A DNA stretch of 64,000 nt from Candidatus Oxydemutatoraceae bacterium (lineage in GTDB: Bacteria > Pseudomonadota > Gammaproteobacteria > Poriferisulfidales > Oxydemutatoraceae): contig OZ244779.1 of the NCBI GenBank assembly GCA_965219575.1, forward strand, positions 1,800,352 through 1,864,351, in the 5' to 3' direction. Below the pieces are notes generated by a model that did no database searches, was not told where the DNA came from, and saw nothing but the letters and a program-made list of their open reading frames with translations. This document shows, piece after piece, positions 19,871 through 35,240 of the stretch (the stretch's first letter is position 1; the number at the start of each line of letters is the position of its first letter). Both the position numbers and the translations under genes were made by a program.

Positions 19871-20146
19871 TCATCTAAAAATACAACCGCTATTCGTAAC
19901 GGTGACAGTAAAACCTTCCATGTCGCGCATCACATCCGCGACTTGGAAGGTTTCTATTTGGCTTGCTGATTGCTCGTCGTCTAATCCTTCAAAAGCCTCA
20001 TCAAGTACCAACAAATTGAATTGTCCCTCCTCGCACGATACTTTATAACCCCAACCGTGCTCCTCGGGTACTTCGGTAGTGTATATTTCGGCACCTACAA
20101 AGTGCCGCTCTAAATACGCTTTCACTATTTCTGTTTGCTTAGTCAT
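19871..20146 (-). CDS. Hypothetical protein, 91 aa
   Basis: A clean ORF convergent with the previous gene. No domain recognised. Confidence 0.4.
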   Translation of the reverse strand: MTKQTEIVKAYLERHFVGAEIYTTEVPEEHGWGYKVSCEEGQFNLLVLDEAFEGLDDEQSASQIETFQVADVMRDMEGFTVTVTNSGCIFR

Positions 20147-20228: not shown

Positions 20229-20253
20229 TTCGTCGGATATTTGCTACCGCTCA
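20229..20253 (+). promoter_or_regulatory. Conserved 25-nt motif TTCGTCGGAWATTTGCTACCGYTCA, copy 1 of 2. It lies 94 nt upstream of the 20348 start codon.
   Basis: Identical apart from two positions to 21259-21283. That copy lies 96 nt upstream of the 21380 start. Confidence 0.5.
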
Positions 20254-20347
20254 TTGAATTTAGTAAAGCCACATATTTCGAAAAAGGATACCCTGTGACT
20301 GATTTGCTATAAGGCATCAATTTACATATAATTCAGAGGAGAAGACA

Positions 20348-20575
20348 ATGAACACAGTAATATCGTTATTAGAAAAAATCCCCGGTGCCTCTAATGAGGA
20401 AGTTTTAGAGGTTGCTACCAAATTGCGCAGAACCGATGATTTGGTAGCTCATAAAGATTTAGAAACGATCATAGCGAAACTAGAAGCACGACTGATCAAG
20501 CAGATGTATGCTGTGGGCGGAGTAACCGTTGCAATAACGCTCACAGGTGTCGGATTGATGATCCAGTTTTTATGA
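20348..20575 (+). CDS. DUF1640-like small membrane protein with a coiled-coil region and a C-terminal TM helix
   Basis: 75 aa. The C-terminus is hydrophobic (AVGGVTVAITLTGVGLMIQFL). It resembles the neighbouring DUF1640 paralogs. Confidence 0.5.
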   Translation: MNTVISLLEKIPGASNEEVLEVATKLRRTDDLVAHKDLETIIAKLEARLIKQMYAVGGVTVAITLTGVGLMIQFL

Positions 20576-20585
20576 TGAAGCAATA

Positions 20586-20745
20586 CCATAGAACCGCCGA
20601 TTGAGCCAGTAGGTCAATCGGCAATACAAAGCCGCCGATTGAGCCAGTAGGTCAATCGGCAATACAAAGCCGCCGATTGAGCCAGTAGGTCAATCGGCAA
20701 TTATGATGTGCGCCCGATAGGTTGATCGGCGTTACATTGTTCAGG
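20586..20745. repeat. Tandem array of three perfect 38-bp module-A palindromic units plus one degenerate unit (REP-like)
   Basis: acaaagccgccgattgagccagtaggtcaatcggcaat appears three times, then gcgcccgataggttgatcggcg. Confidence 0.85.
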
Positions 20746-20759
20746 ACTACGATAATAAT

Positions 20760-21074
20760 TTAACCCATGCGTAACAACGCGATGATGACACCGGTAAAAC
20801 CGGCACCTATAACACATATAGCCACAATGCTTTCTACATATAGCCACGATAATCTTCTCTCAACTATACCGATATGCTTTTCAACTATACCTATACGCCT
20901 CTCAACGGCATCAAAACGAGCGTCTATTTTATCAAGGACTTCTTGCATTGACATCGATACTTGTCGGTCAATCGCACGCGCCGTTATCTCCGCTTGCGTT
21001 CTCGACATTCCTGCTTGTTCCAATTCGTGCATCGTGTTAAAAGTCTCCGTGCTTCGGTTGATCGTTGTATTCAT
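20760..21074 (-). CDS. DUF1640 family protein
   Basis: 104 aa. The FNTMHELEQAGMSRTQAE motif is shared with the 53231-53491 paralog. It has a C-terminal TM helix. Confidence 0.65.
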   Translation of the reverse strand: MNTTINRSTETFNTMHELEQAGMSRTQAEITARAIDRQVSMSMQEVLDKIDARFDAVERRIGIVEKHIGIVERRLSWLYVESIVAICVIGAGFTGVIIALLRMG

Positions 21075-21076
21075 TT

Positions 21077-21215
21077 TTACTCCTTTGAATTATATGTTAA
21101 TCAATGCCCTAGAGCAAACTAAGGGATAGCCTATCTCACCCTGTAGCACGATTTTCCTAATTTTGATGAACAGCCCTAAATACCCGACGAACGGTTTTAT
21201 ATAAAGGGAATGTAG
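21077..21215 (-). promoter_or_regulatory. Diverged copy of the ~145-nt upstream element E (see 53495-53640)
   Basis: ctcctttgaatta...cccgacgaacggttttatataaaggg aligns with the 5' and 3' parts of the other two copies. Confidence 0.45.
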
Positions 21216-21258: not shown

Positions 21259-21283
21259 TTCGTCGGAAATTTGCTACCGTTCA
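21259..21283 (+). promoter_or_regulatory. Conserved 25-nt motif, copy 2 of 2
   Basis: Same motif as at 20229-20253, at the same distance from the start codon. Confidence 0.5.
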
Positions 21284-21379
21284 CCGGAAATATAACAAAG
21301 TACTTCTTTTATAGGTCAAAATCGGACTAATCTTTGTTATTCAAGTTTATAAGTCAAACGATTAGGAGGAATTATTAAC

Positions 21380-23485
21380 ATGATGGAAACTTTCAGATCT
21401 AAAACAGATACTATCATCGAGGTACCGCAAGATTGGGTTGCTTTGTATGTAAAAGAGAATCCCGAAGCTATGGAGATATTAAACACGCATAAAATCTATA
21501 ACGATGTTTCATATCTCAATGCCGAGCGTGGATTAGATCCGATTACTCGACAAAAACTGAGCATATTTAGGATACGCCATTTAGCCGATAAAAACCGCAG
21601 AAACCCGTGTGCGATTGCCCGCGCCGCATCGCCGTGGTGGGCGAAACAAAGACTGACCAGCACAAATACCACGCTTAGAATCTATAAAGTTTTGCAAACA
21701 AAGAATATACAAACAGTTGAAGATCTAGCCGCTTGGACAACCGAAAAATTGCACGAGCAAACACCTTTCGGCTACAAAACTTTATACAACCTCTGCATTT
21801 TCTTAAATAAAATCATCGGCGATAATCCGATAGCCGACAAAAAACAAACTCGGGATGGTGATATTGACGACGCGCTTATACGCGACGCAATAGCCGAACC
21901 GGACAAACTCAAACAGCTGATGAAAATACTGCACTACACAGATAACTGCAAAGATCCGTGTAAGTTGGCGCGTTTGGCTCTACCGTGGTTGGGCAAATGG
22001 AAGCTGATAGACACAAACTTTCCCAAAGCACCTATAGAAGTTATGAGGAGAGACGGTATCGAAACAATCTCGGATCTTGCAACATGCTCCCCGGAAAGAT
22101 TACTCGGCAAGAGAATGTTCGGGCGTAAGTCTCTGCACATTATTCTAAATTGCTTAAATACCGCACTGCTCGGAAAGCTAATATCCGATATAGATTATCC
22201 GGCAAATGTCGATTTGATACCGAACTCGAAGGTCTCTATACACCTTAGGCTCGGCTTCATTGAAAATCTAAGATGTTTTTTGTCTTCGCTCTATCCCGTT
22301 GATCTCTATATTTTTACGCGTCGGACGGCATTTGAAGCTACATTTCAAACTATACAAAAAATTTCGGATACCTGCGGCAAGTCGATCGTATATGTCACTT
22401 TAAGCCAAGCTGCGATGATAAAGAATTTTAGGAATTCTCTCTTAGGGCATATCTTCAGGCAAAAAATCATACGGCTATCGGAGGAGGCCGATTTTCCATT
22501 GTCTTTAGATCAAATAGAAACTATGGATCTATGGTTCAGCGGCATCCACTCGCATCGAACATTTTTCGGAAATCTAATCGGCGCAGTGAATGAGCGCGGT
22601 ATACGCGTCGTTAAAATCGGCAACAAATATTATCTCGGTTCGATTGAGCAGTTGGTTTGGAAGCGTACCGTAGAGGCGGCGAAAGCATTATTATCTTCGT
22701 CCGTAGACAAAGGGTGGAGTGAGACCGAAGCCTTTTTACGGGTGCAAAGATTGTTGCCCGACGGTGCCAAGCAATTCAAAAATCTATTGTGGGATTATGC
22801 CTCCGATTTATGCTACTTTAAAATTAATCCCGACGGTACGCGCACATTGATAGACTACGGGAAAGGACTGCACAAAACTATCAAAGTAATCCTTTCCGAA
22901 TCCGATTCGCCGATGCACTACGATGAAATCATCAAGGCGATAAAACTTAAGCTGGGGCTAAATCTGACTATGCTACAAGTATGTCCGGCGGCAAATAGTG
23001 TCGGTCTTGCCTTTAGAAAGGGGCTGTACGGTCTTGACAAACATATACCTTTCTCCGACAAACAGATTGCTCGTATCTGTCGTGCAGCCGAATCTATCGT
23101 CTACGCCGATAGGGCAAAAAAGCAGTGGCATTGTTTTGAAATACTCTCTAAATTGCCGGAACAAGCCGATGAGACCTTCGACAAGTTAGATATCCGTTTG
23201 CTAAACATCGTGCTTTCTAAATCCCGGAGATTGAGCTATCTTAACAGAATGGTCTGGACAACGACCGAAGGTTACAACAAAGGAGAAAAACGTCTGAACA
23301 AAACTCAAGCAATCATCGCTATGATCAAAAATGCCGGACATCCGTTGACGGGAAGCGAAATCAAAGCGCGATTACAAAAAGTAACCGGTGTCAATAAAAT
23401 TTTGCATATACCGAAGCATCCGTCTTTAATTCGCATCGCACCCGGTGTTTGGGATGTTAAGGACAAGGATGTACCGAATAGTTAG
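21380..23485 (+). CDS. Hypothetical 701-aa protein with two tandem RpoA alphaCTD-like helix-hairpin-helix modules and two or three HARE-HTH-like winged-helix modules
   Basis: Two ~80-aa modules (CAIARAASPWWAKQRL...NIQTVEDLAAWTTEKL...FGYKTLYNL and CKLARLALPWLGKWKL...GIETISDLATCSPERLL...FGRKSLHIIL) follow the alphaCTD pattern of RpoA. The C-terminal segments ...GHPLTGSEIKARLQKV...LIRIAPGVWDV and ...MHYDEIIKAI...AFRKGLYGL follow the HARE-HTH pattern. Confidence 0.7.
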   Translation: MMETFRSKTDTIIEVPQDWVALYVKENPEAMEILNTHKIYNDVSYLNAERGLDPITRQKLSIFRIRHLADKNRRNPCAIARAASPWWAKQRLTSTNTTLRIYKVLQTKNIQTVEDLAAWTTEKLHEQTPFGYKTLYNLCIFLNKIIGDNPIADKKQTRDGDIDDALIRDAIAEPDKLKQLMKILHYTDNCKDPCKLARLALPWLGKWKLIDTNFPKAPIEVMRRDGIETISDLATCSPERLLGKRMFGRKSLHIILNCLNTALLGKLISDIDYPANVDLIPNSKVSIHLRLGFIENLRCFLSSLYPVDLYIFTRRTAFEATFQTIQKISDTCGKSIVYVTLSQAAMIKNFRNSLLGHIFRQKIIRLSEEADFPLSLDQIETMDLWFSGIHSHRTFFGNLIGAVNERGIRVVKIGNKYYLGSIEQLVWKRTVEAAKALLSSSVDKGWSETEAFLRVQRLLPDGAKQFKNLLWDYASDLCYFKINPDGTRTLIDYGKGLHKTIKVILSESDSPMHYDEIIKAIKLKLGLNLTMLQVCPAANSVGLAFRKGLYGLDKHIPFSDKQIARICRAAESIVYADRAKKQWHCFEILSKLPEQADETFDKLDIRLLNIVLSKSRRLSYLNRMVWTTTEGYNKGEKRLNKTQAIIAMIKNAGHPLTGSEIKARLQKVTGVNKILHIPKHPSLIRIAPGVWDVKDKDVPNS

Positions 23486-23595
23486 CTTTTCCTCGGTAGC
23501 GTATTCATATTTTGATTACCGCCGTATCGCGGGATTGTGGTTTCCATCGATTAAAGCGATTCTATTTTGCTCGCACAAGGTATAATTTACCTACG

Positions 23596-25401
23596 ATGTG
23601 TGGTATTGCCGGTGAATTTTGTTTCGGGGGGCGGGCGACGAGTGCCGAAAATCTGCAACGGATGCTGGAACACATTGATTTTCGCGGTCCCGATAGTCGG
23701 CAGACTTGGTTGGACGGGCAGATAGGTTTTGCGCATGCACGGCTCGCAATCATAGATTTATCGGCTACCGGATCCCAACCTATGGTGGATCGTGATTTGG
23801 ATTTAGTGCTGGTGTTCAACGGGGTCATCTATAACTATCGCACGCTACGCGCTCGCCTGGAATCCTACGGCTACCGCTTCTTCGGCACCAGCGACAGCGA
23901 GGTTATCCTAAAAGCCTATCATCGTTGGCGGGAAGCCTGTGTTGAAAAACTCGACGGTATCTTTGCATTCGCAATTTGGGATCGCCGGTGCGAGTCTCTT
24001 TTCCTTGCTCGCGATCGTCTGGGAATCAAACCGCTTTATTATGCACGCACCGCAAATTGTTTTCGTTTTGCCTCGAACCCGCAGGCGTTGCTGGCAACCG
24101 ACGAGATTAATACCGAGATCGATGCGGTTGCATTACATCGTCATCTGAGTTTACATGCGGTCATCCCCGCGCCTCGTACCTTATTACGCGGCATACGCAA
24201 GCTCGAACCTGCACACACGATGTCGGTTGATTATAACGGTACTTTTGCCAAGCATCGTTATTGGTCCTTATCCGAGCAGGCACAATGTTTAGACATGCAA
24301 GAAGACGAATGGATAGAATTAATCGAATACGAATTGTCGAAGGCTGTTAAAAAACGTTTTGAAATAGCCGATGTAGAGGTCGGTGTCTTATTGTCGGGTG
24401 GATTGGACTCCAGTCTATTGGTGGCACTGCTCGCCAAGCTCAATGTCGCAAACATCAAGACTTATACGATCGGCTTCGAAAGCAAAGGCAAAGAGATCGG
24501 CGACGAGTTCGCCTACTCCGATGCAGTCGTAGAACACTTCAATACGGATCATCATCGCTTTAGCGTATCCGACACACAATTATACGAGCGGCTGCCCGAG
24601 GCGATTGCAAAGATGGCCGAACCTATGCCGGCGCAAGACTGTATCGCTTTTTATCTGCTTGCCGAGCAAGTCGGCGCAGACATTAAAGTTGTGCAGAGCG
24701 GACAAGGTGCCGACGAAGTGTTCGGCGGTTATTTTTGGTATCCCGAAATGCACCGTGCATCGGGTACGCCGTTGCAACGATTTAGTCGACATTATTTCGA
24801 TCGTAGCCACGACGAATACTCGGCAACCGTCGCACCATCTTTGCATATAACCGACAGCACTTCGCCTTTGGTCGCAGATCGTCTCGGACAAATCAAACTA
24901 TCCGATTATATAAACACCGTTTTATGCTTCGATGTAGAAACTTTGATCGTCGACGACCCGGTCAAGCGCGTGGACAATATGATGATGGCGTGGGGTGTAG
25001 AGGCAAGAGTGCCGTTTCTGGATCGTCATCTGGTAGAAACTGTCTGCGCGATGCCGCCCGAACTTAAACTCGGCGACGGCGGCAAATATAGCCTCAAAAA
25101 AATCGCTCGCCGCTATCTGCCAACCGAGGTGATAGACCGCAAAAAGGGCTATTTTCCCGTTCCTGCTCTAAAATATGTGCAGGGAATGTTTTATGAAATG
25201 ATGTGCGATGCCCTAAACTCGAATGCTTGCCGCGAACGCGAACTATTTCAACGCAGCTACATAACACACTTGCTAAACTCGGAGAAAGATCAGCTGACAC
25301 CGATACAAGGTAACAAACTCTGGCATTGTGCATTGCTCGAAATGTGGCTACAAACGCATGTAGACCGACACGGCACCGTACCGACACAGGTAATGAGATA
25401 A
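23596..25401 (+). CDS. asnB: Asparagine synthase (glutamine-hydrolysing)
   Basis: MCGIAGEF is a class-II amidotransferase N-terminus. SGGLDSS PP-loop. The ORF-track start at 23512 is probably an upstream extension. Confidence 0.85.
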   Translation: MCGIAGEFCFGGRATSAENLQRMLEHIDFRGPDSRQTWLDGQIGFAHARLAIIDLSATGSQPMVDRDLDLVLVFNGVIYNYRTLRARLESYGYRFFGTSDSEVILKAYHRWREACVEKLDGIFAFAIWDRRCESLFLARDRLGIKPLYYARTANCFRFASNPQALLATDEINTEIDAVALHRHLSLHAVIPAPRTLLRGIRKLEPAHTMSVDYNGTFAKHRYWSLSEQAQCLDMQEDEWIELIEYELSKAVKKRFEIADVEVGVLLSGGLDSSLLVALLAKLNVANIKTYTIGFESKGKEIGDEFAYSDAVVEHFNTDHHRFSVSDTQLYERLPEAIAKMAEPMPAQDCIAFYLLAEQVGADIKVVQSGQGADEVFGGYFWYPEMHRASGTPLQRFSRHYFDRSHDEYSATVAPSLHITDSTSPLVADRLGQIKLSDYINTVLCFDVETLIVDDPVKRVDNMMMAWGVEARVPFLDRHLVETVCAMPPELKLGDGGKYSLKKIARRYLPTEVIDRKKGYFPVPALKYVQGMFYEMMCDALNSNACRERELFQRSYITHLLNSEKDQLTPIQGNKLWHCALLEMWLQTHVDRHGTVPTQVMR

Positions 25402-30850: not shown

Positions 30851-31936
30851 CTAGGTAAACACATTATTCTTGCAAAGATATTCGCTCATTCTCGCTTGAC
30901 ATTCTGCTAACCGCTTTCTTGAGAGCTCACAGTAAGTGGAATCTATATCAATACCTAGATAATGGCAATCCTCTTCCATAGCGGCAATAGCCGTTGTGCC
31001 GCTCCCGCTATACGGGTCCAGAACGATGCCGTTCTTCGGTGAAAGCAGTTTTATAATTTCTTTGATAATTGAAAGAGGAAATATAGCACTGTGTTTATTT
31101 CCGGGAATTGATTCAACCGACGAAATAATCACATCCTTTTTCATTTTCTTTCCATGTATTTTAATAATAGTGTAACCGTTCTTCTCGATCTGGCTTTTAC
31201 GCCCCCCTTCTTGCCCTCCGAAAGCCTCTGCGTGTATTCCGCGAATCTTCATACGAAATCCCTCTATTTTAGATTCTTTTACTTCTTCAGTAACCTCGTC
31301 GAGAGATTTATGCGCTTTTCTTTTCAGCTCCGAAGATAAATCCGAATTTTCAATCAATGTCCTATATCTTTCTCCTAATCTATTTGAAGGCTTATGCCGT
31401 TTTCTTTCGTCTACCTCGTTAAAAAATTTATCGGGGTTGTAATAATATTTTGTACCTTTTACAAAATGAAAAAATGGTTCCGTGCTACTTACCAGACGCC
31501 GCCCGAATTGCCTCGGTGTGGGGTTTCTCTTTACCCAAGTTATTTCATTGACAAGCTTCACACTATGGTCATTAGTTGCTTTTATGGCAAATCTATACGG
31601 CACAAGTAAAAGCGAACCATTCAGATATTTATCACCGATGTTATAAACGATATTTCCCGAAGGTTTTACTACTCTGACAATTTCCGAAAATACTTCAAGT
31701 AGAGAGTCAATATAAGACTCAACCGTTTTTTCGTGACCGGTCCCGATTCCCATTCCGTTATAATTTCGTTGCATATAGTACGGTGGGGATGTCACCACTA
31801 AATCAATACTATTATCCGGTAACTGCTTCAGCAAAAAAGCGGCATCTCCACACTGTATTGAATCTATTAGGCAATTCATCCGGCTTTTATGTGAAAGACC
31901 CTTTTGGGATTTTTCTAATTCTATAAAAGAACTCAT
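30851..31936 (-). CDS. Beta-class amino-DNA methyltransferase (N6-adenine or N4-cytosine). It appears to be an orphan.
   Basis: Motif IV VTSPPYY lies near the N-terminus. Motif I VLDPYSGSGTT lies near the C-terminus. GC content is low. No restriction endonuclease ORF is adjacent. Confidence 0.8.
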   Translation of the reverse strand: MSSFIELEKSQKGLSHKSRMNCLIDSIQCGDAAFLLKQLPDNSIDLVVTSPPYYMQRNYNGMGIGTGHEKTVESYIDSLLEVFSEIVRVVKPSGNIVYNIGDKYLNGSLLLVPYRFAIKATNDHSVKLVNEITWVKRNPTPRQFGRRLVSSTEPFFHFVKGTKYYYNPDKFFNEVDERKRHKPSNRLGERYRTLIENSDLSSELKRKAHKSLDEVTEEVKESKIEGFRMKIRGIHAEAFGGQEGGRKSQIEKNGYTIIKIHGKKMKKDVIISSVESIPGNKHSAIFPLSIIKEIIKLLSPKNGIVLDPYSGSGTTAIAAMEEDCHYLGIDIDSTYCELSRKRLAECQARMSEYLCKNNVFT

Positions 31937-32408: not shown

Positions 32409-35240
32409 ATGAGAAAGCAACTGAAAATAACAATCTCGGCACTATGTTTAGTCATTTTTACAATAGCAGAAACCAATGCTTTTATGATGACAAACTCTTA
32501 TCCATCTAGCAAAACATTAGCTGCGCAGTCGGTAAATAATACCGGAATGAATACCTACGAGGCTATAATGCTTCAACAGGTACAGCAAAATTTCAATCCT
32601 GTAGGGATTTGGCAACTTACAGCAGCCGAAGCTACAGGATTTCAATGTTCCGTTGATGTTGATATCGATATTAATGATCTTCTTGACTTTTCTCAAGTAA
32701 ACACAGAGCTTGATGCTGTGGTGACATCTAATAGATTAAGTATTGTAAATAGACAAACATCAGCAGTATATACGGAAATCCGCAGACATCCGCCCAATCG
32801 ATATATACTCGAAAACAGGGGAAGCTTCTCTCAATTTGTGAATGGCCTCTTAGTTCGAGTGGTAGGAAGGGATGCAGTAGACCTTACTCTTATCTCTGAT
32901 GAGGAAGTAGTAGGAACAGGTGTTGTAACCGCAACCGTAACTGCAGAAGCGATAAACTTTGAAGTTCGTTGCTCTGCTACTTACACGATAGCGGCAAAAA
33001 AAATTAGTTCCCCCCGTTTATCTAAGCTTTCTTTATCTACGGGAACACTGCATCCGAACTTTGACGGCACAGTCTTTAGGTATTTTGCAGCCGTTCCCAA
33101 TAATACTCGACAAATTACGCTGAGATTGAATGCCGAGGAGAGTAACAACACGATCACCGTCAACGGCAATCGGATAACCGGAACTGCAACTATTCCCCTA
33201 GGTTCTAATACCGATACGATTACCGTAGGTATACGGACGGCAGACGGTAATAGAACAAATACTTACATCGTTGATATCATACGGCTTGCACAACGAAATT
33301 TTAATCCCGTAGGAACTTGGGAAACCACTGCGAGAGAAAATATAAACCTTCAATGTCCCTTGCTTCCCAATTTAAGTTTAAGCCGTGACGATTTTGACCC
33401 GATAGGCAGAGAGTACGATATAGTCATGACATCGGGCGGGTTAAACCTCATAGATAGAGTGGATTCGGAAACGTCTACCGAAATTGGCAGAAATATACCG
33501 AATCGTTATAGCTTGCAATACATTGAGAGAGAGTCTATATCCGAACAAGGTGTCACATTGACAATAGAAGGAACGAGCACTCTAGATTTTATCCTGATCT
33601 CCGATGAGGAAGCGATAGTTGCGGTTGTCAGGGACATAAAAGTGACGAGCCTCGAAAATATTCCCTGCCTTACATCGTATACGGTAAGCGCAAAAAAAGC
33701 CGCAATATCTACTGCTATCCTAAAAGATATTTCATTATCGGCAAGCACGCTTAACTCAATCTTCACCGGCTTAGTCAGGAATTATTCTGCAACCGTTGAC
33801 AGTGGTGTCGGCCAACTTGGGATAACGATTGAAACTTCCCATATAAATCAATCGGTCACGATAAACGGTACCACACTATCCAGAGGCTTAAATCGTAGTC
33901 AATTGATAAGTAGTACGGTACCGCTAAGCGTGGGTAACAATACGATCGTTATAGGAGTGACATCGGCGGACGGCATATTGACATCAAGCTACACTTTGCA
34001 AGTTATCCGTCGAAGCCCTGCTTTGATCGGATTGTCTTTATCTCCCGGAACGCTCAACCCCGGCTTTAGTAGAGAGAGATTAAGATATGCAGCAACCGTA
34101 GAGAGTGATATAGAACGAATTACACTAACTCCTACAGCCGATAGTGCCGGACATAGGGTCATCATTACCGCCAACGGAAGATCTATAAACGGAAATTCAG
34201 TTCCTTTGAATGTAGGAGACAATACCATAGCTATCTCGGTCACTACGCGAGACAGTCAAGCAACGACAAGATACACCTTAACTGTAAGGCGATTAGAACC
34301 CTGCTTGACCGACCTCTTCTTATCATCGGGATCACTCAGCCCAACCTTCGGTAATCCCAGTCAATGCAGTAATGCAGCGATACGATATGCGGCAACCGTA
34401 GAGAGTGATATAGAACGAATCACATTAACCCCTACAGCCAATAGTGCCACACATACAATCGCCATTACTGCCAACGGAAATTCTATAACCGGAAATACAG
34501 TTCCTCTGAATGTGGGAGACAATACTATAGCTATTTCAGTCACTACGCGAGACAGTCGAGCAACGACAAGATATGTCGTAACTGTAAGGCGATTAGAGCC
34601 CTGCTTGACCGACCTCTCTCTATCGTCGGGATCACTCAGCCCGACCTTCATAACATGCTCGGATGAAACGGTAAATTACCGAGCAATCGTGAGAAACAAT
34701 GTAAGCCAAATTGAAATAACGGCTACGGCAAATAGTATCGCACATACGATTACTTTCAACAGTAATCAAAATAGTACGGTACCGCTAAGCGTAGGCGACA
34801 ATACGATTACCGTATCGGTAACAACGGCAGACGGTATGGCTAGAAAAGATTACAACTTAGTTATAAGACGTTTAAGTACGGCAACTTTAACCGGACTAAC
34901 AGTGGAAGTAAATTCGCAAATGCTAGAACTAAACCCTAACTTCAGCCTTATCAACTTAGACTACAGAATAAATGTAGAAAATACTATGACCCTTGTTACT
35001 ATACAACCTACGGCCTCGGCCGGTCGCATCATCAGGGTACGCTATACACCGGACGATGGCACCGCAATTGACCGTCTCGTCTCGAGTGGCGATACGGTTA
35101 CCATAACGCCATTGTTCTATGGTAAGAATAATGTCTACATCGATGTTATGCACAACGGTGCTATGGAGAGATATTCACTAGCCGTGATTATAGGTGTTAT
35201 TCTGCGTATAAAATTATTTTTAGAAGGTGCCTTGCAATAA
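32409..35240 (+). CDS. Secreted 943-aa protein with a signal peptide. It has a duplicated N-terminal module and six or more cadherin-like beta-sandwich domains. It ends with the C-terminal motif RIKLFLEGALQ.
   Basis: MRKQLKITISALCLVIFTIAETNA is a signal peptide. Repeated units of the form LSxLSLSxGTLxPxF...RYxA.V...I.VGDNTI.I.VT..DG...YTL.V.R are present. Two of the units are near-identical. Confidence 0.8.
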   Translation: MRKQLKITISALCLVIFTIAETNAFMMTNSYPSSKTLAAQSVNNTGMNTYEAIMLQQVQQNFNPVGIWQLTAAEATGFQCSVDVDIDINDLLDFSQVNTELDAVVTSNRLSIVNRQTSAVYTEIRRHPPNRYILENRGSFSQFVNGLLVRVVGRDAVDLTLISDEEVVGTGVVTATVTAEAINFEVRCSATYTIAAKKISSPRLSKLSLSTGTLHPNFDGTVFRYFAAVPNNTRQITLRLNAEESNNTITVNGNRITGTATIPLGSNTDTITVGIRTADGNRTNTYIVDIIRLAQRNFNPVGTWETTARENINLQCPLLPNLSLSRDDFDPIGREYDIVMTSGGLNLIDRVDSETSTEIGRNIPNRYSLQYIERESISEQGVTLTIEGTSTLDFILISDEEAIVAVVRDIKVTSLENIPCLTSYTVSAKKAAISTAILKDISLSASTLNSIFTGLVRNYSATVDSGVGQLGITIETSHINQSVTINGTTLSRGLNRSQLISSTVPLSVGNNTIVIGVTSADGILTSSYTLQVIRRSPALIGLSLSPGTLNPGFSRERLRYAATVESDIERITLTPTADSAGHRVIITANGRSINGNSVPLNVGDNTIAISVTTRDSQATTRYTLTVRRLEPCLTDLFLSSGSLSPTFGNPSQCSNAAIRYAATVESDIERITLTPTANSATHTIAITANGNSITGNTVPLNVGDNTIAISVTTRDSRATTRYVVTVRRLEPCLTDLSLSSGSLSPTFITCSDETVNYRAIVRNNVSQIEITATANSIAHTITFNSNQNSTVPLSVGDNTITVSVTTADGMARKDYNLVIRRLSTATLTGLTVEVNSQMLELNPNFSLINLDYRINVENTMTLVTIQPTASAGRIIRVRYTPDDGTAIDRLVSSGDTVTITPLFYGKNNVYIDVMHNGAMERYSLAVIIGVILRIKLFLEGALQ

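What the first reader, a model, noticed from the sequence alone, without database searches (positions are those of the whole stretch)
21380..23485. Hypothetical 701-aa protein combining two RpoA alphaCTD-like HhH modules with HARE-HTH-like winged helices
Two tandem ~80-aa modules match the helix-hairpin-helix pattern of the RNA polymerase alpha C-terminal domain (hydrophobic-TVEDL...FGxKSL...). They have conserved Cys/Trp-containing leaders, C[AK][IL]ARxAxPWxxKxxL. The C-terminal half holds at least two segments that fit the HARE-HTH pattern. That pattern is known from RNAP delta subunits and restriction-system proteins (...GxPLxxxEI...hxRhxxGhaxL). Both domain types relate to RNA polymerase. 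No enzymatic domain is evident. The protein could be a transcription-associated or DNA-recognition protein of unknown role. It sits in a small cluster with DUF1640 genes and the shared 25-nt motif.
Basis: inference. Interest (0 to 1): 0.7.

Follow-up and report, generated by a model that had tools for sequence, protein, structure and literature searches.

The report
Orphaned DNA-binding subunit of phage-defence operons
The 701-aa gene is real and non-enzymatic, built only from DNA-binding modules (two copies of the RNA polymerase alpha C-terminal domain, a decayed sigma region-4 fold and five winged helices), and it is a cut-down, stand-alone descendant of a protein that elsewhere ends methylase-linked PbeABCD-type anti-phage operons.

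Summary
The ORF (21380..23485, +) is intact. Pfam RNA_pol_A_CTD scores 45.2 bits (cutoff 23.8) in two stretches, and the two modules are 37% identical to each other. Two of those helices are HARE-HTH-like. No enzymatic domain was found.

An exhaustive profile search found a large family (437 cluster representatives at E<=1e-30). Pfam tallies on 26 members: alphaCTD 26/26, Sigma70_r4 23/26, HARE-HTH 18/26. NCBI calls a plasmid member "sigma factor-like helix-turn-helix DNA-binding protein". In 7 of 10 sampled loci outside the window's clade, the member is the last gene of an operon: N6/N4 methylase, PbeA, PbeB, PbeC, PbeD, member.

The window's clade ('Candidatus Porisulfidus' MAGs) is nested inside this family but has no Pbe genes nearby. 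It has lost the N-terminal domain, the sigma recognition helix and the last two winged helices, and it has duplicated the alphaCTD. It is still under purifying selection (dN/dS about 0.2) and carries a conserved upstream DNA element.

Best reading: a domesticated or orphaned DNA-binding subunit. Its function is inferred, not shown.

The parts
21380..23485 (+). Intact 701-aa ORF: orphan member of the alphaCTD / sigma-r4 / multi-winged-helix family
   Evidence: dN/dS is 0.18-0.28 in all pairs among six orthologues.
21428..21595 (+). N-terminal helical segment (aa 17-72), conserved family-wide (W19, Y45, E49, L52, R57, R64 nearly invariant)
21599..21829 (+). alphaCTD-like module 1 with DPC..PW leader (aa 74-150). 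It keeps the equivalents of E. coli alpha R265 (R100), G296 (G131) and K298 (K133).
21830..21949 (+). Low-confidence linker (aa 151-190), the only segment with relaxed selection (dN/dS 0.45-0.89)
21950..22177 (+). alphaCTD-like module 2 with leader (aa 191-266), a clade-specific duplication. It has Ala at the R265 position and keeps the FGRKS hairpin.
22235..22438 (+). Sigma-70 region-4-like four-helix HTH (aa 286-353). The recognition helix is degenerate: SIVYVTLSQ where relatives have TRERVRQIE.
22439..22861 (+). Winged helices A and B (aa 354-422 and 423-494), the best-predicted and most conserved part (DPWF motif at aa 383-386)
22862..23047 (+). Winged helix C, HARE-HTH-like copy 1 (aa 495-556)
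23051..23269 (+). Winged helix D (aa 558-630; RQWH and LxRMVW motifs)
23291..23473 (+). Winged helix E, HARE-HTH-like copy 2 (aa 638-698). The protein ends here, whereas typical members carry two more copies.
21259..21335 (+). Conserved upstream DNA block. It starts with the 25-nt motif and holds a direct repeat CGGAAAT at 21-nt spacing. It travels with the gene even to a different chromosomal site (L003).
   Evidence: No Rfam hit, no conserved RNA fold and no sigma-70 consensus promoter.
20229..20253 (+). Second copy of the 25-nt motif, ~95 nt upstream of the 75-aa ORF at 20348

Best explanation
The gene encodes a non-enzymatic, multi-module DNA-binding protein. It is a reduced, stand-alone descendant of the 'sigma factor-like HTH DNA-binding protein' family.

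In typical family members (~830-890 aa), the domains run in this order: an N-terminal domain, an alphaCTD, a primary-sigma-like region 4, and about seven winged helices, four of which are HARE-HTH-like. The typical gene abuts the end of this operon: N6/N4 methylase, PbeA (HKD nuclease plus SF2 helicase), PbeB (small protein), PbeC (CxC/DndD-like ABC ATPase), PbeD (DndE-like). There it most likely serves as the DNA-recognition or sensor subunit (inferred).

In the lineage of this window, the enzymatic partners are gone from the neighbourhood. The N-terminal domain, the -35-reading helix of the sigma module and the last two winged helices were lost. The alphaCTD was duplicated. The gene became fixed upstream of asnB-nnr-tsaE-amiC.

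Every folded module is still under purifying selection. I therefore take it to work now as a chromosomal DNA-binding or regulatory protein. On this reading it binds DNA through the winged-helix array and alphaCTD copy 1. It probably acts on the conserved direct-repeat element in front of its own gene and of the small neighbouring ORFs.

Shown: the fold and domain content, the family membership, the operon context of relatives, the losses, the selection, and the conserved upstream element.
Inferred: DNA binding, autoregulation, and independence from Pbe enzymes.
For: Domains:
- Pfam alphaCTD 45.2 bits against cutoff 23.8.
- AlphaFold2 model from 111 sequences: pLDDT 90.1, pTM 0.74.
- Foldseek tandem winged-helix arrays: UFL1, SelB, Rpc5.

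Family:
- 1085 representatives at E<=1e-3 and 437 at E<=1e-30. The conserved core is profile positions 290-762.
- Pfam tally on 26 members: 26/26 alphaCTD, 23/26 Sigma70_r4, 18/26 HARE-HTH.
- NCBI name on the Aurantiacibacter plasmid.

Operon context of relatives:
- The full methylase-PbeA-PbeB-PbeC-PbeD-member operon occurs in L007, L008, L009, L092, L093, L094 and L096.
- PADLOC scores: PbeA 719-748 bits, PbeC 736-1004 bits.
- Gene roles follow PMC10853773 and PMC6459918.

Derived orphan status:
- An NJ tree nests the window clade inside operon-linked members.
- No Pbe homologue lies in the 64-kb window or in the flanks of six orthologous loci.
- Domain losses and the alphaCTD duplication.

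Still functional:
- The ORF is intact in at least six genomes, with dN/dS ~0.2 overall and 0.1-0.3 per domain. Only the linker is relaxed.

Upstream element:
- It is conserved in all six clade genomes, including the relocated copy in L003.
Against: - No experiment bears on this protein or, as far as I could find, on the family.
- Only the window and +-8-10 kb of the related chromosomes were searched, so Pbe genes elsewhere in the genome are not excluded. The PbeC search gave no hit on those chromosomes, but only the top 120 hits were visible, so that result is inconclusive.
- The protein evolves much faster than its neighbours. It is 49% identical between the window and L002, where the neighbours are 75-96%. 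That pattern is typical of conflict genes rather than housekeeping regulators.
- Binding to the upstream element is pure inference.
- HARE-HTH is below Pfam's cutoff in this sequence.
Confidence: 0.55

Rival explanations
1. It is still a defence component. It works in trans with a methylase/Pbe-type (CxC ABC ATPase) system encoded elsewhere on the chromosome, as the DNA-recognition or sensor subunit.
For: 7 of 10 sampled relatives sit in such operons. The gene evolves fast relative to its neighbours. L010 shows an intermediate state in which only the PbeD-like gene is kept next to the member.
Against: No Pbe genes lie in the 64-kb window or in the flanks of L001-L003, L005, L006 or L095. The window's only nearby methylase belongs to a different subgroup (PDLC03387, not PDLC03323 or PDLC03296). 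The N-terminal domain, the sigma recognition helix and two winged helices are lost. The operon genes of relatives abut or overlap, which suggests co-translation rather than action in trans.
Confidence: 0.15
2. It is a stand-alone decoy. The alphaCTD copies and the sigma-r4-like fold mimic the surfaces of RNA polymerase that phage proteins attack, so the protein soaks up or senses such factors without needing an effector.
For: The same alphaCTD plus sigma-r4 pair recurs, at domain level, in the defence proteins MzaA and PglW. The alphaCTD is duplicated here, and it is triplicated together with sigma r4 in P0012. Evolution is fast, but under purifying selection.
Against: Typical members keep the DNA-contact residues of both modules (LTVR..N, FGRKS, TRERVRQIE). 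That pattern argues for real DNA binding rather than mimicry. In the window protein the sigma helix is degenerate, and alphaCTD copy 2 lacks the R265 equivalent. No phage partner is known.
Confidence: 0.15
3. It is a decaying remnant of a lost defence island. It is kept only because its DNA carries signals needed by the downstream asnB-nnr-tsaE-amiC genes.
For: It lies directly upstream of asnB, on the same strand, in the window, L001, L002 and L095, with no terminator predicted between them. It has shed several domains.
Against: The ORFs are full-length and free of internal stops in six genomes that diverge to 49% identity. dN/dS is 0.1-0.3 in every folded domain and relaxed only in the linker. 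In L003 the gene is kept at another site, away from asnB, together with its own upstream element.
Confidence: 0.05
4. It is a genuine RNA polymerase accessory subunit (delta-like or alternative sigma-like) that docks on the core enzyme.
For: The domain types are those of RNAP alpha and sigma, and the HARE-HTH domain of delta.
Against: It has no alpha N-terminal domain (NCBIfam rpoA 29.6 bits against cutoff 227.8). No sigma region 2 was found in this protein. The region-4 recognition helix is degenerate. Relatives are tied to defence operons, not transcription genes.
Confidence: 0.05

Closest known systems
'Sigma factor-like helix-turn-helix DNA-binding protein' family (NCBI product name, e.g. 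WP_063612567.1 on Aurantiacibacter atlanticus plasmid NZ_CP015441). This is the terminal gene of methylase-linked PbeABCD / CxC-ABC-ATPase-DndE systems.
   Same: It is homologous over aa ~17-701, with E down to 1e-150 and below for operon-linked members. The module order is the same: alphaCTD, sigma r4, winged helices. The motifs DPWF, RQWH and LGRMVW are shared.
   Different: It has no Pbe or methylase partners nearby. It lacks the ~125-aa N-terminal domain and the last two winged helices. The sigma recognition helix is degenerate and the alphaCTD is duplicated.
PbeABCD / CxC ABC ATPase-DndE anti-phage systems (Xiong 2019, PMC6459918; Krishnan et al. 2024, PMC10853773)
   Same: Relatives of this protein are encoded immediately after PbeD in the methylase-carrying versions of these systems.
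   Different: The protein is not PbeA, B, C or D, and PADLOC has no model for it. The 2024 paper mentions an 'MTaX1 domain' gene in methylase-carrying systems. I could not check whether that is this family, because the defining papers were not available.
RNA polymerase alpha subunit C-terminal domain (PF03118)
   Same: Pfam scores above the gathering cutoff. The fold superposes at 1.1-1.8 A. Copy 1 keeps the R265, G296 and K298 equivalents.
   Different: There is no alpha N-terminal domain. An extra 'DPC..PW' leader precedes each copy. Copy 2 has Ala at the R265 position.
MzaA (MZA system sigma-like protein) and BREX PglW
   Same: Relatives align to MzaA positions ~574-726 and to PglW positions 797-958, across an alphaCTD plus sigma-r4 pair.
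   Different: The resemblance is at domain level only (scores 24-108 bits against cutoffs of 800 and 990). The window protein itself gives no hit to either.
HARE-HTH winged helix (PF05066; RNAP delta, ASXL, restriction enzymes)
   Same: 18 of 26 family members hit it, best E 4.6e-9. The two window segments are winged helices and are related to each other.
   Different: The window sequence scores 13.5 bits against a cutoff of 25.9. The above-cutoff hits seen in relatives (P0012, P0105) lie in the C-terminal copies that the window protein lacks.

Membership tests
RNA_pol_A_CTD domain (PF03118) | Profile score at or above the Pfam gathering cutoff | tested here: met
   45.2 bits against 23.8, in two stretches
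RNA_pol_A_CTD domain (PF03118) | Four-helix, double helix-hairpin-helix fold | tested here: met
RNA_pol_A_CTD domain (PF03118) | DNA-contact '265 determinant' (E. coli R265, N268, G296, K298, S299; residue numbering from established knowledge) | tested here: inconclusive
   Copy 1 has R, K, G, K, T at these positions. Copy 2 has A, E, G, K, S.
RNA polymerase alpha subunit (rpoA) | N-terminal dimerisation and assembly domain; whole-protein equivalog score | tested here: not met
   TIGR02027 scores 29.6 bits against cutoff 227.8, and only the CTD region matches
Sigma70_r4 (PF04545) | Profile score at or above the gathering cutoff | tested here: not met
   No hit at E<=10 in the window protein. 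23 of 26 relatives hit at E<=0.01, and the relatives checked individually score above the cutoff at the aligned position.
Sigma70_r4 (PF04545) | Region-4 fold (helices 4.1 plus the 4.2 HTH) | tested here: met
Sigma70_r4 (PF04545) | -35 recognition helix (TRERIRQIE-type in primary sigmas) | tested here: not met
   The window has SIVYVTLSQ. The family consensus is TRERvRQIE.
HARE-HTH (PF05066) | Profile score at or above the gathering cutoff | tested here: not met
   13.5 bits, E 0.097, against cutoff 25.9
HARE-HTH (PF05066) | Winged-helix fold and homology to segments that do match HARE-HTH | tested here: inconclusive
   The winged-helix fold is met. Relatives score 19.7-22.1 bits at the aligned copy. 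They score 27.5-32.6 bits only at the C-terminal copies absent here. 18 of 26 members hit at E<=0.01.
alphaCTD / sigma-r4 / multi-wHTH family ('sigma factor-like HTH DNA-binding protein') | Full-length homology of the conserved core | tested here: met
   Profile search, 437 representatives at E<=1e-30. Alignments. NJ tree.
alphaCTD / sigma-r4 / multi-wHTH family ('sigma factor-like HTH DNA-binding protein') | Position as terminal gene after methylase-PbeA-PbeB-PbeC-PbeD | tested here: not met
   No Pbe homologue in the window or in the flanks of clade loci. 7 of 10 non-clade loci have the operon.
PbeABCD system proteins | Match to the PADLOC PbeA-D models | tested here: not met
   No PADLOC hit
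MTaX1-domain protein of methylase-linked CxC-ABC systems (Krishnan et al.) | Presence of the MTaX1 domain as defined in NAR 2020 48:10045 | not testable with these tools
   The defining paper is not held. The window protein lacks the N-terminal domain of typical members in any case.

The most novel reading that the evidence does not exclude
A defence-system subunit that carries private copies of both promoter-reading modules of RNA polymerase (alphaCTD and sigma region 4) has been domesticated in a sponge-symbiont lineage. It has lost its nuclease, ATPase and methylase partners. It now acts on its own, either as a transcription-associated regulator that recognises the conserved CGGAAAT direct-repeat element, or as a decoy that captures phage factors aimed at RNA polymerase.
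Probability: 0.2. Interest if true: 0.7.

Novelty: new variant of a known kind. Interest (0 to 1): 0.45.

Why it matters
At family level, a large multi-HTH protein is shown to be a regular sixth gene of methylase-carrying PbeABCD / CxC-ABC systems. It has alphaCTD and primary-sigma-like region-4 modules whose DNA-contact motifs are intact. PADLOC does not model it, and I found no experimental work on it. It may explain how these poorly understood systems pick their DNA targets or sense infection.

At window level, it is a clean example of a defence component that outlives its system. It is streamlined, relocated next to housekeeping genes, still under selection, and carries its own conserved upstream element. 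That makes it a testable case of domestication in a reduced symbiont genome.

Tried and rejected
- The word-indexed homologue search found only 11 close relatives, both with the single protein and with a 26-sequence alignment. The exhaustive profile search was needed to see the family.
It left nothing for a whole-genome Pbe search.
- The metagenome scan with alignment A3 was swamped by ordinary sigma factors, through the TRERIRQI pattern. None of the 80 loci was a family member.
- Scans with the 26-sequence alignment failed for lack of a conserved stretch.
- A viral-contig scan with core motifs found nothing, and tblastn against 50,697 phage records found nothing. Only 1 of 72,556 plasmids carries a member.
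No match appeared in the visible top 120 hits, so it is inconclusive.
- A link to the nearby N6/N4 methylase (30851-31936, minus strand) is rejected. It belongs to a different PADLOC subgroup from the Pbe-linked methylases.
- The upstream block is not a structured RNA. There is no Rfam hit, and RNAalifold gives -1.4 kcal/mol.
- The upstream block is not a sigma-70 consensus promoter either. None was predicted on the + strand between 21075 and 21380.
- DUF1640 identity of the neighbouring small ORFs has no Pfam support.
- Literature searches for PbeE, MzaA and the NCBI product name gave nothing relevant. The two Aravind-lab papers that might define this protein were not available.
Full report
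**1. The observation**

The window holds an uninterrupted ORF at 21380..23485 (+), 701 aa. An AGGAGG sits 10 nt upstream of the ATG.

Pfam RNA_pol_A_CTD scores 45.2 bits against a gathering cutoff of 23.8, in two stretches. NCBIfam rpoA models hit only at their C-terminal ends and far below their cutoffs.

The two ~80-aa modules, including the Cys/Trp 'leaders', are 37% identical to each other (E 4e-16). hhalign gives probability 99.9%.

HARE-HTH is weak in the sequence alone: 13.5 bits, E 0.097, at aa 501-524. WH_Rok scores 16.7 bits at aa 643-672. The two segments do match each other as profiles (95%, E 3e-8).

PADLOC gave no match and PHROGs only two weak ones (E 0.14 and 0.3, families of unknown function). 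The sequence search of solved structures gave only marginal matches (E about 0.7-0.9), two of them alphaCTD chains.

**2. Structure**

With only the 12 close homologues, AlphaFold reached pLDDT 65.7. With a 111-sequence family alignment it reached pLDDT 90.1 and pTM 0.74.

The model shows these parts:
- a helical N-terminal segment (aa 17-72);
- a leader plus alphaCTD (aa 74-150);
- a disordered linker;
- a second leader plus alphaCTD (aa 191-266);
- a four-helix module (aa ~286-353);
- five successive three-helix, beta-hairpin winged helices (aa 354-422, 423-494, 495-556, 558-630, 638-698).

Foldseek returns tandem winged-helix arrays (UFL1 E 1.5e-3, SelB, Rpc5 tWHD2, Dcc1, STK19) and alphaCTD at TM 0.83. 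No catalytic fold appears.

**3. The family**

The word-indexed search saw only 11 homologues at 49-93% identity. The exhaustive profile search found 1085 cluster representatives at E<=1e-3 and 437 at E<=1e-30. They are mostly 830-870 aa. The conserved core corresponds to query aa ~285-701 plus a C-terminal extension.

Among 26 diverse members, Pfam finds RNA_pol_A_CTD in 26, Sigma70_r4 in 23 and HARE-HTH in 18 (best E 4.6e-9).

The family consensus keeps 'LtVR..NVF' and 'NFGRKS'. From established knowledge of E. coli alpha, these correspond to R265, N268, G296, K298 and S299. It also keeps 'TLQEIG...vTRERvRQIEaKa', which is essentially the region 4.2 of primary sigma factors. NCBIfam RpoD, RpoS and RpoH hits agree.

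Relatives also align, at domain level, to an alphaCTD plus region-4 pair in MzaA and BREX PglW.

No NCBIfam model is specific to the family. NCBI names the one plasmid member 'sigma factor-like helix-turn-helix DNA-binding protein'.

**4. Genomic context of relatives**

In 7 of 10 loci sampled outside the window's clade, the member is the last gene of one operon. The genes abut or overlap. The order is:
- an N6/N4 methylase, which is on the opposite strand in L094 and lies downstream of the member in L009;
- a ~700-aa PLD/HKD plus SF2 helicase;
- a 64-71-aa protein;
- a 620-661-aa ABC ATPase;
- a 123-128-aa protein;
- the family member.

The seven loci are L007, L008 (the Aurantiacibacter plasmid, where the member is split by an IS3), L009, L092, L093, L094 and L096.

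PADLOC identifies the helicase as PbeA (719-748 bits) and the ATPase as PbeC (736-1004 bits). NCBIfam gives dnd_restrict_1 and DndD.

According to Krishnan et al. 2024 (PMC10853773), PbeA is an HKD nuclease plus SF2 helicase. [quoted passage not shown] Xiong et al. 2019 (PMC6459918) showed that pbeB, pbeC and pbeD are indispensable for defence against the virus SNJ1 and that pbeA is partially required.

The family described here is therefore an additional, regular component of the methylase-linked version. I could not establish whether it is the 'MTaX1' protein, because the defining papers were unavailable.

The other three loci differ. L010 (P0012, with three alphaCTD-sigma-r4 repeats) keeps only the PbeD-like gene. 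L011 is solo. L095 is solo and sits upstream of asnB.

The family is absent from 50,697 phage records and from IMG/VR contigs by motif scan. It occurs on one of 72,556 plasmids.

**5. The window's lineage**

Close homologues come from 'uncultured Candidatus Porisulfidus' MAGs with 2.2-2.9 Mb chromosomes. The one genome-focused paper I found reports the genus among sponge-associated metagenome sequences.

In the window, L001, L002 and L095, the gene lies directly upstream of asnB-nnr-tsaE-amiC on the same strand. In L003 it lies elsewhere.

No PbeA, B, C or D homologue exists in the 64-kb window or in the flanks of the clade loci. The methylase at 30851-31936 belongs to another subgroup.

Aligned to typical members, the window protein differs in four ways:
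- it lacks the ~125-aa N-terminal domain;
- it has an inserted second leader plus alphaCTD;
- it has SIVYVTLSQ in place of TRERVRQIE;
- it stops after the fifth winged helix, whereas the P0007-P0011 subclade keeps a sixth.

AlphaCTD copy 1 keeps the R265, G296 and K298 equivalents. Copy 2 has Ala at the R265 position.

A neighbour-joining tree of the core places the clade, together with P0013-15 and P0024, inside the family. It is sister to a group that contains full-operon members. The solo state is therefore derived.

**6. Is it still functional?**

The protein diverges much faster than its neighbours. It is 49% identical between the window and L002, where the neighbours are 75-96%.

Even so, pairwise dN/dS is 0.18-0.28 across six genomes. 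Per folded domain it is mostly 0.1-0.3, rising to 0.4-0.5 in a few of the more divergent pairs. Only the inter-alphaCTD linker is consistently relaxed, at 0.45-0.89. This rules out a decaying pseudogene.

**7. The upstream element**

The 25-nt motif occurs twice in the window, against 0 expected. The copy at 21259 begins a ~77-nt block that is conserved upstream of the gene in all six clade genomes, including the relocated copy in L003.

The same 25-mer precedes small ORFs in the window, L001 and L006. The block contains CGGAAAT twice, 21 nt apart (read directly from the sequence).

The block has no Rfam match, no conserved RNA fold and no sigma-70 consensus promoter. It is most simply a DNA-level regulatory site. 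Binding by this protein is an inference.

**8. Interpretation**

The most economical account is an orphaned or domesticated DNA-binding subunit of a methylase-Pbe-type defence system. Rivals are listed with their tests: action in trans with a distant Pbe system, a stand-alone decoy for phage factors that target RNAP, a remnant kept for cis effects, or a true RNAP accessory factor. The first two are not excluded.

**9. Novelty and score**

The domain types and the parent family already exist in databases. The parent system is published. New here are the explicit link of this family to the methylase-Pbe operon, which may already have been noted under another name, and the reduced orphan variant with its own conserved element. 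Interest is moderate at 0.45, and the function remains untested.

Noticed in passing
window 20594-20707: Three tandem copies of a 38-nt unit. Each holds a 27-nt palindrome (GCCGATTGAGCC AGT AGGTCAATCGGC). They lie between the convergent small ORFs at 20348-20575 (+) and 20760-21074 (-). This looks REP-like or like a bidirectional terminator.
   Followed up: no
window 20303-20341 and 21080-21118: A 39-nt inverted repeat, 85% complementary. It covers the 5' leader and RBS regions of the two oppositely oriented small ORFs, so both genes share a leader. Neither ORF gives a DUF1640 hit.
   Followed up: partly
window 20860-20901 (inside the 104-aa ORF, minus strand): A 21-nt tandem repeat encodes the repeated peptide ...VERRIGIVEKHIGIVERR..., a coiled-coil-like repeat ahead of a C-terminal hydrophobic helix.
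   Followed up: no
window 30851-31936 (-) and 32409-35240 (+): A solitary N6/N4 DNA methylase (Pfam 156 bits; PADLOC subgroup PDLC03387) lies next to a 943-aa protein with five cadherin-like domains. No restriction partner was seen. L001 and L002 carry SacI-like and Mrr-like genes in their flanks downstream of amiC, so this may be a variable R-M spot.
   Followed up: partly
window 19871-20146 (-): A 91-aa ORF is conserved at the same place in L001 and L002. It gives a weak SbcC_Walker_B hit (E 4e-4, below cutoff).
   Followed up: no
L010 10001-13444: P0012 (1147 aa), a close relative outside the window's clade, carries three consecutive alphaCTD plus sigma-r4 pairs. It keeps only a PbeD/DndE-like 127-aa gene upstream. 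This may be an intermediate between the full operon and the orphan state.
   Followed up: partly
L008 11998-15641 (Aurantiacibacter atlanticus plasmid NZ_CP015441): The family member at the end of the methylase-Pbe operon is split by an IS3 transposase. The island is flanked by pairs of tyrosine recombinase genes.
   Followed up: no
L003 6113-7467 and 14639-15847: The xseA-like gene appears split into two ORFs (241 and 220 aa). An IS605 OrfB/TnpB-like gene lies nearby, in the genome where the 769-aa orthologue sits at a different chromosomal site.
   Followed up: no
window 23512-23596: The mechanical ORF for asparagine synthase starts at a TTG at 23512. The class-II amidotransferase N-terminus MCGIAGE begins about 84 nt later. 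This leaves a ~110-nt gap after the 701-aa gene, with no predicted + strand terminator.
   Followed up: no
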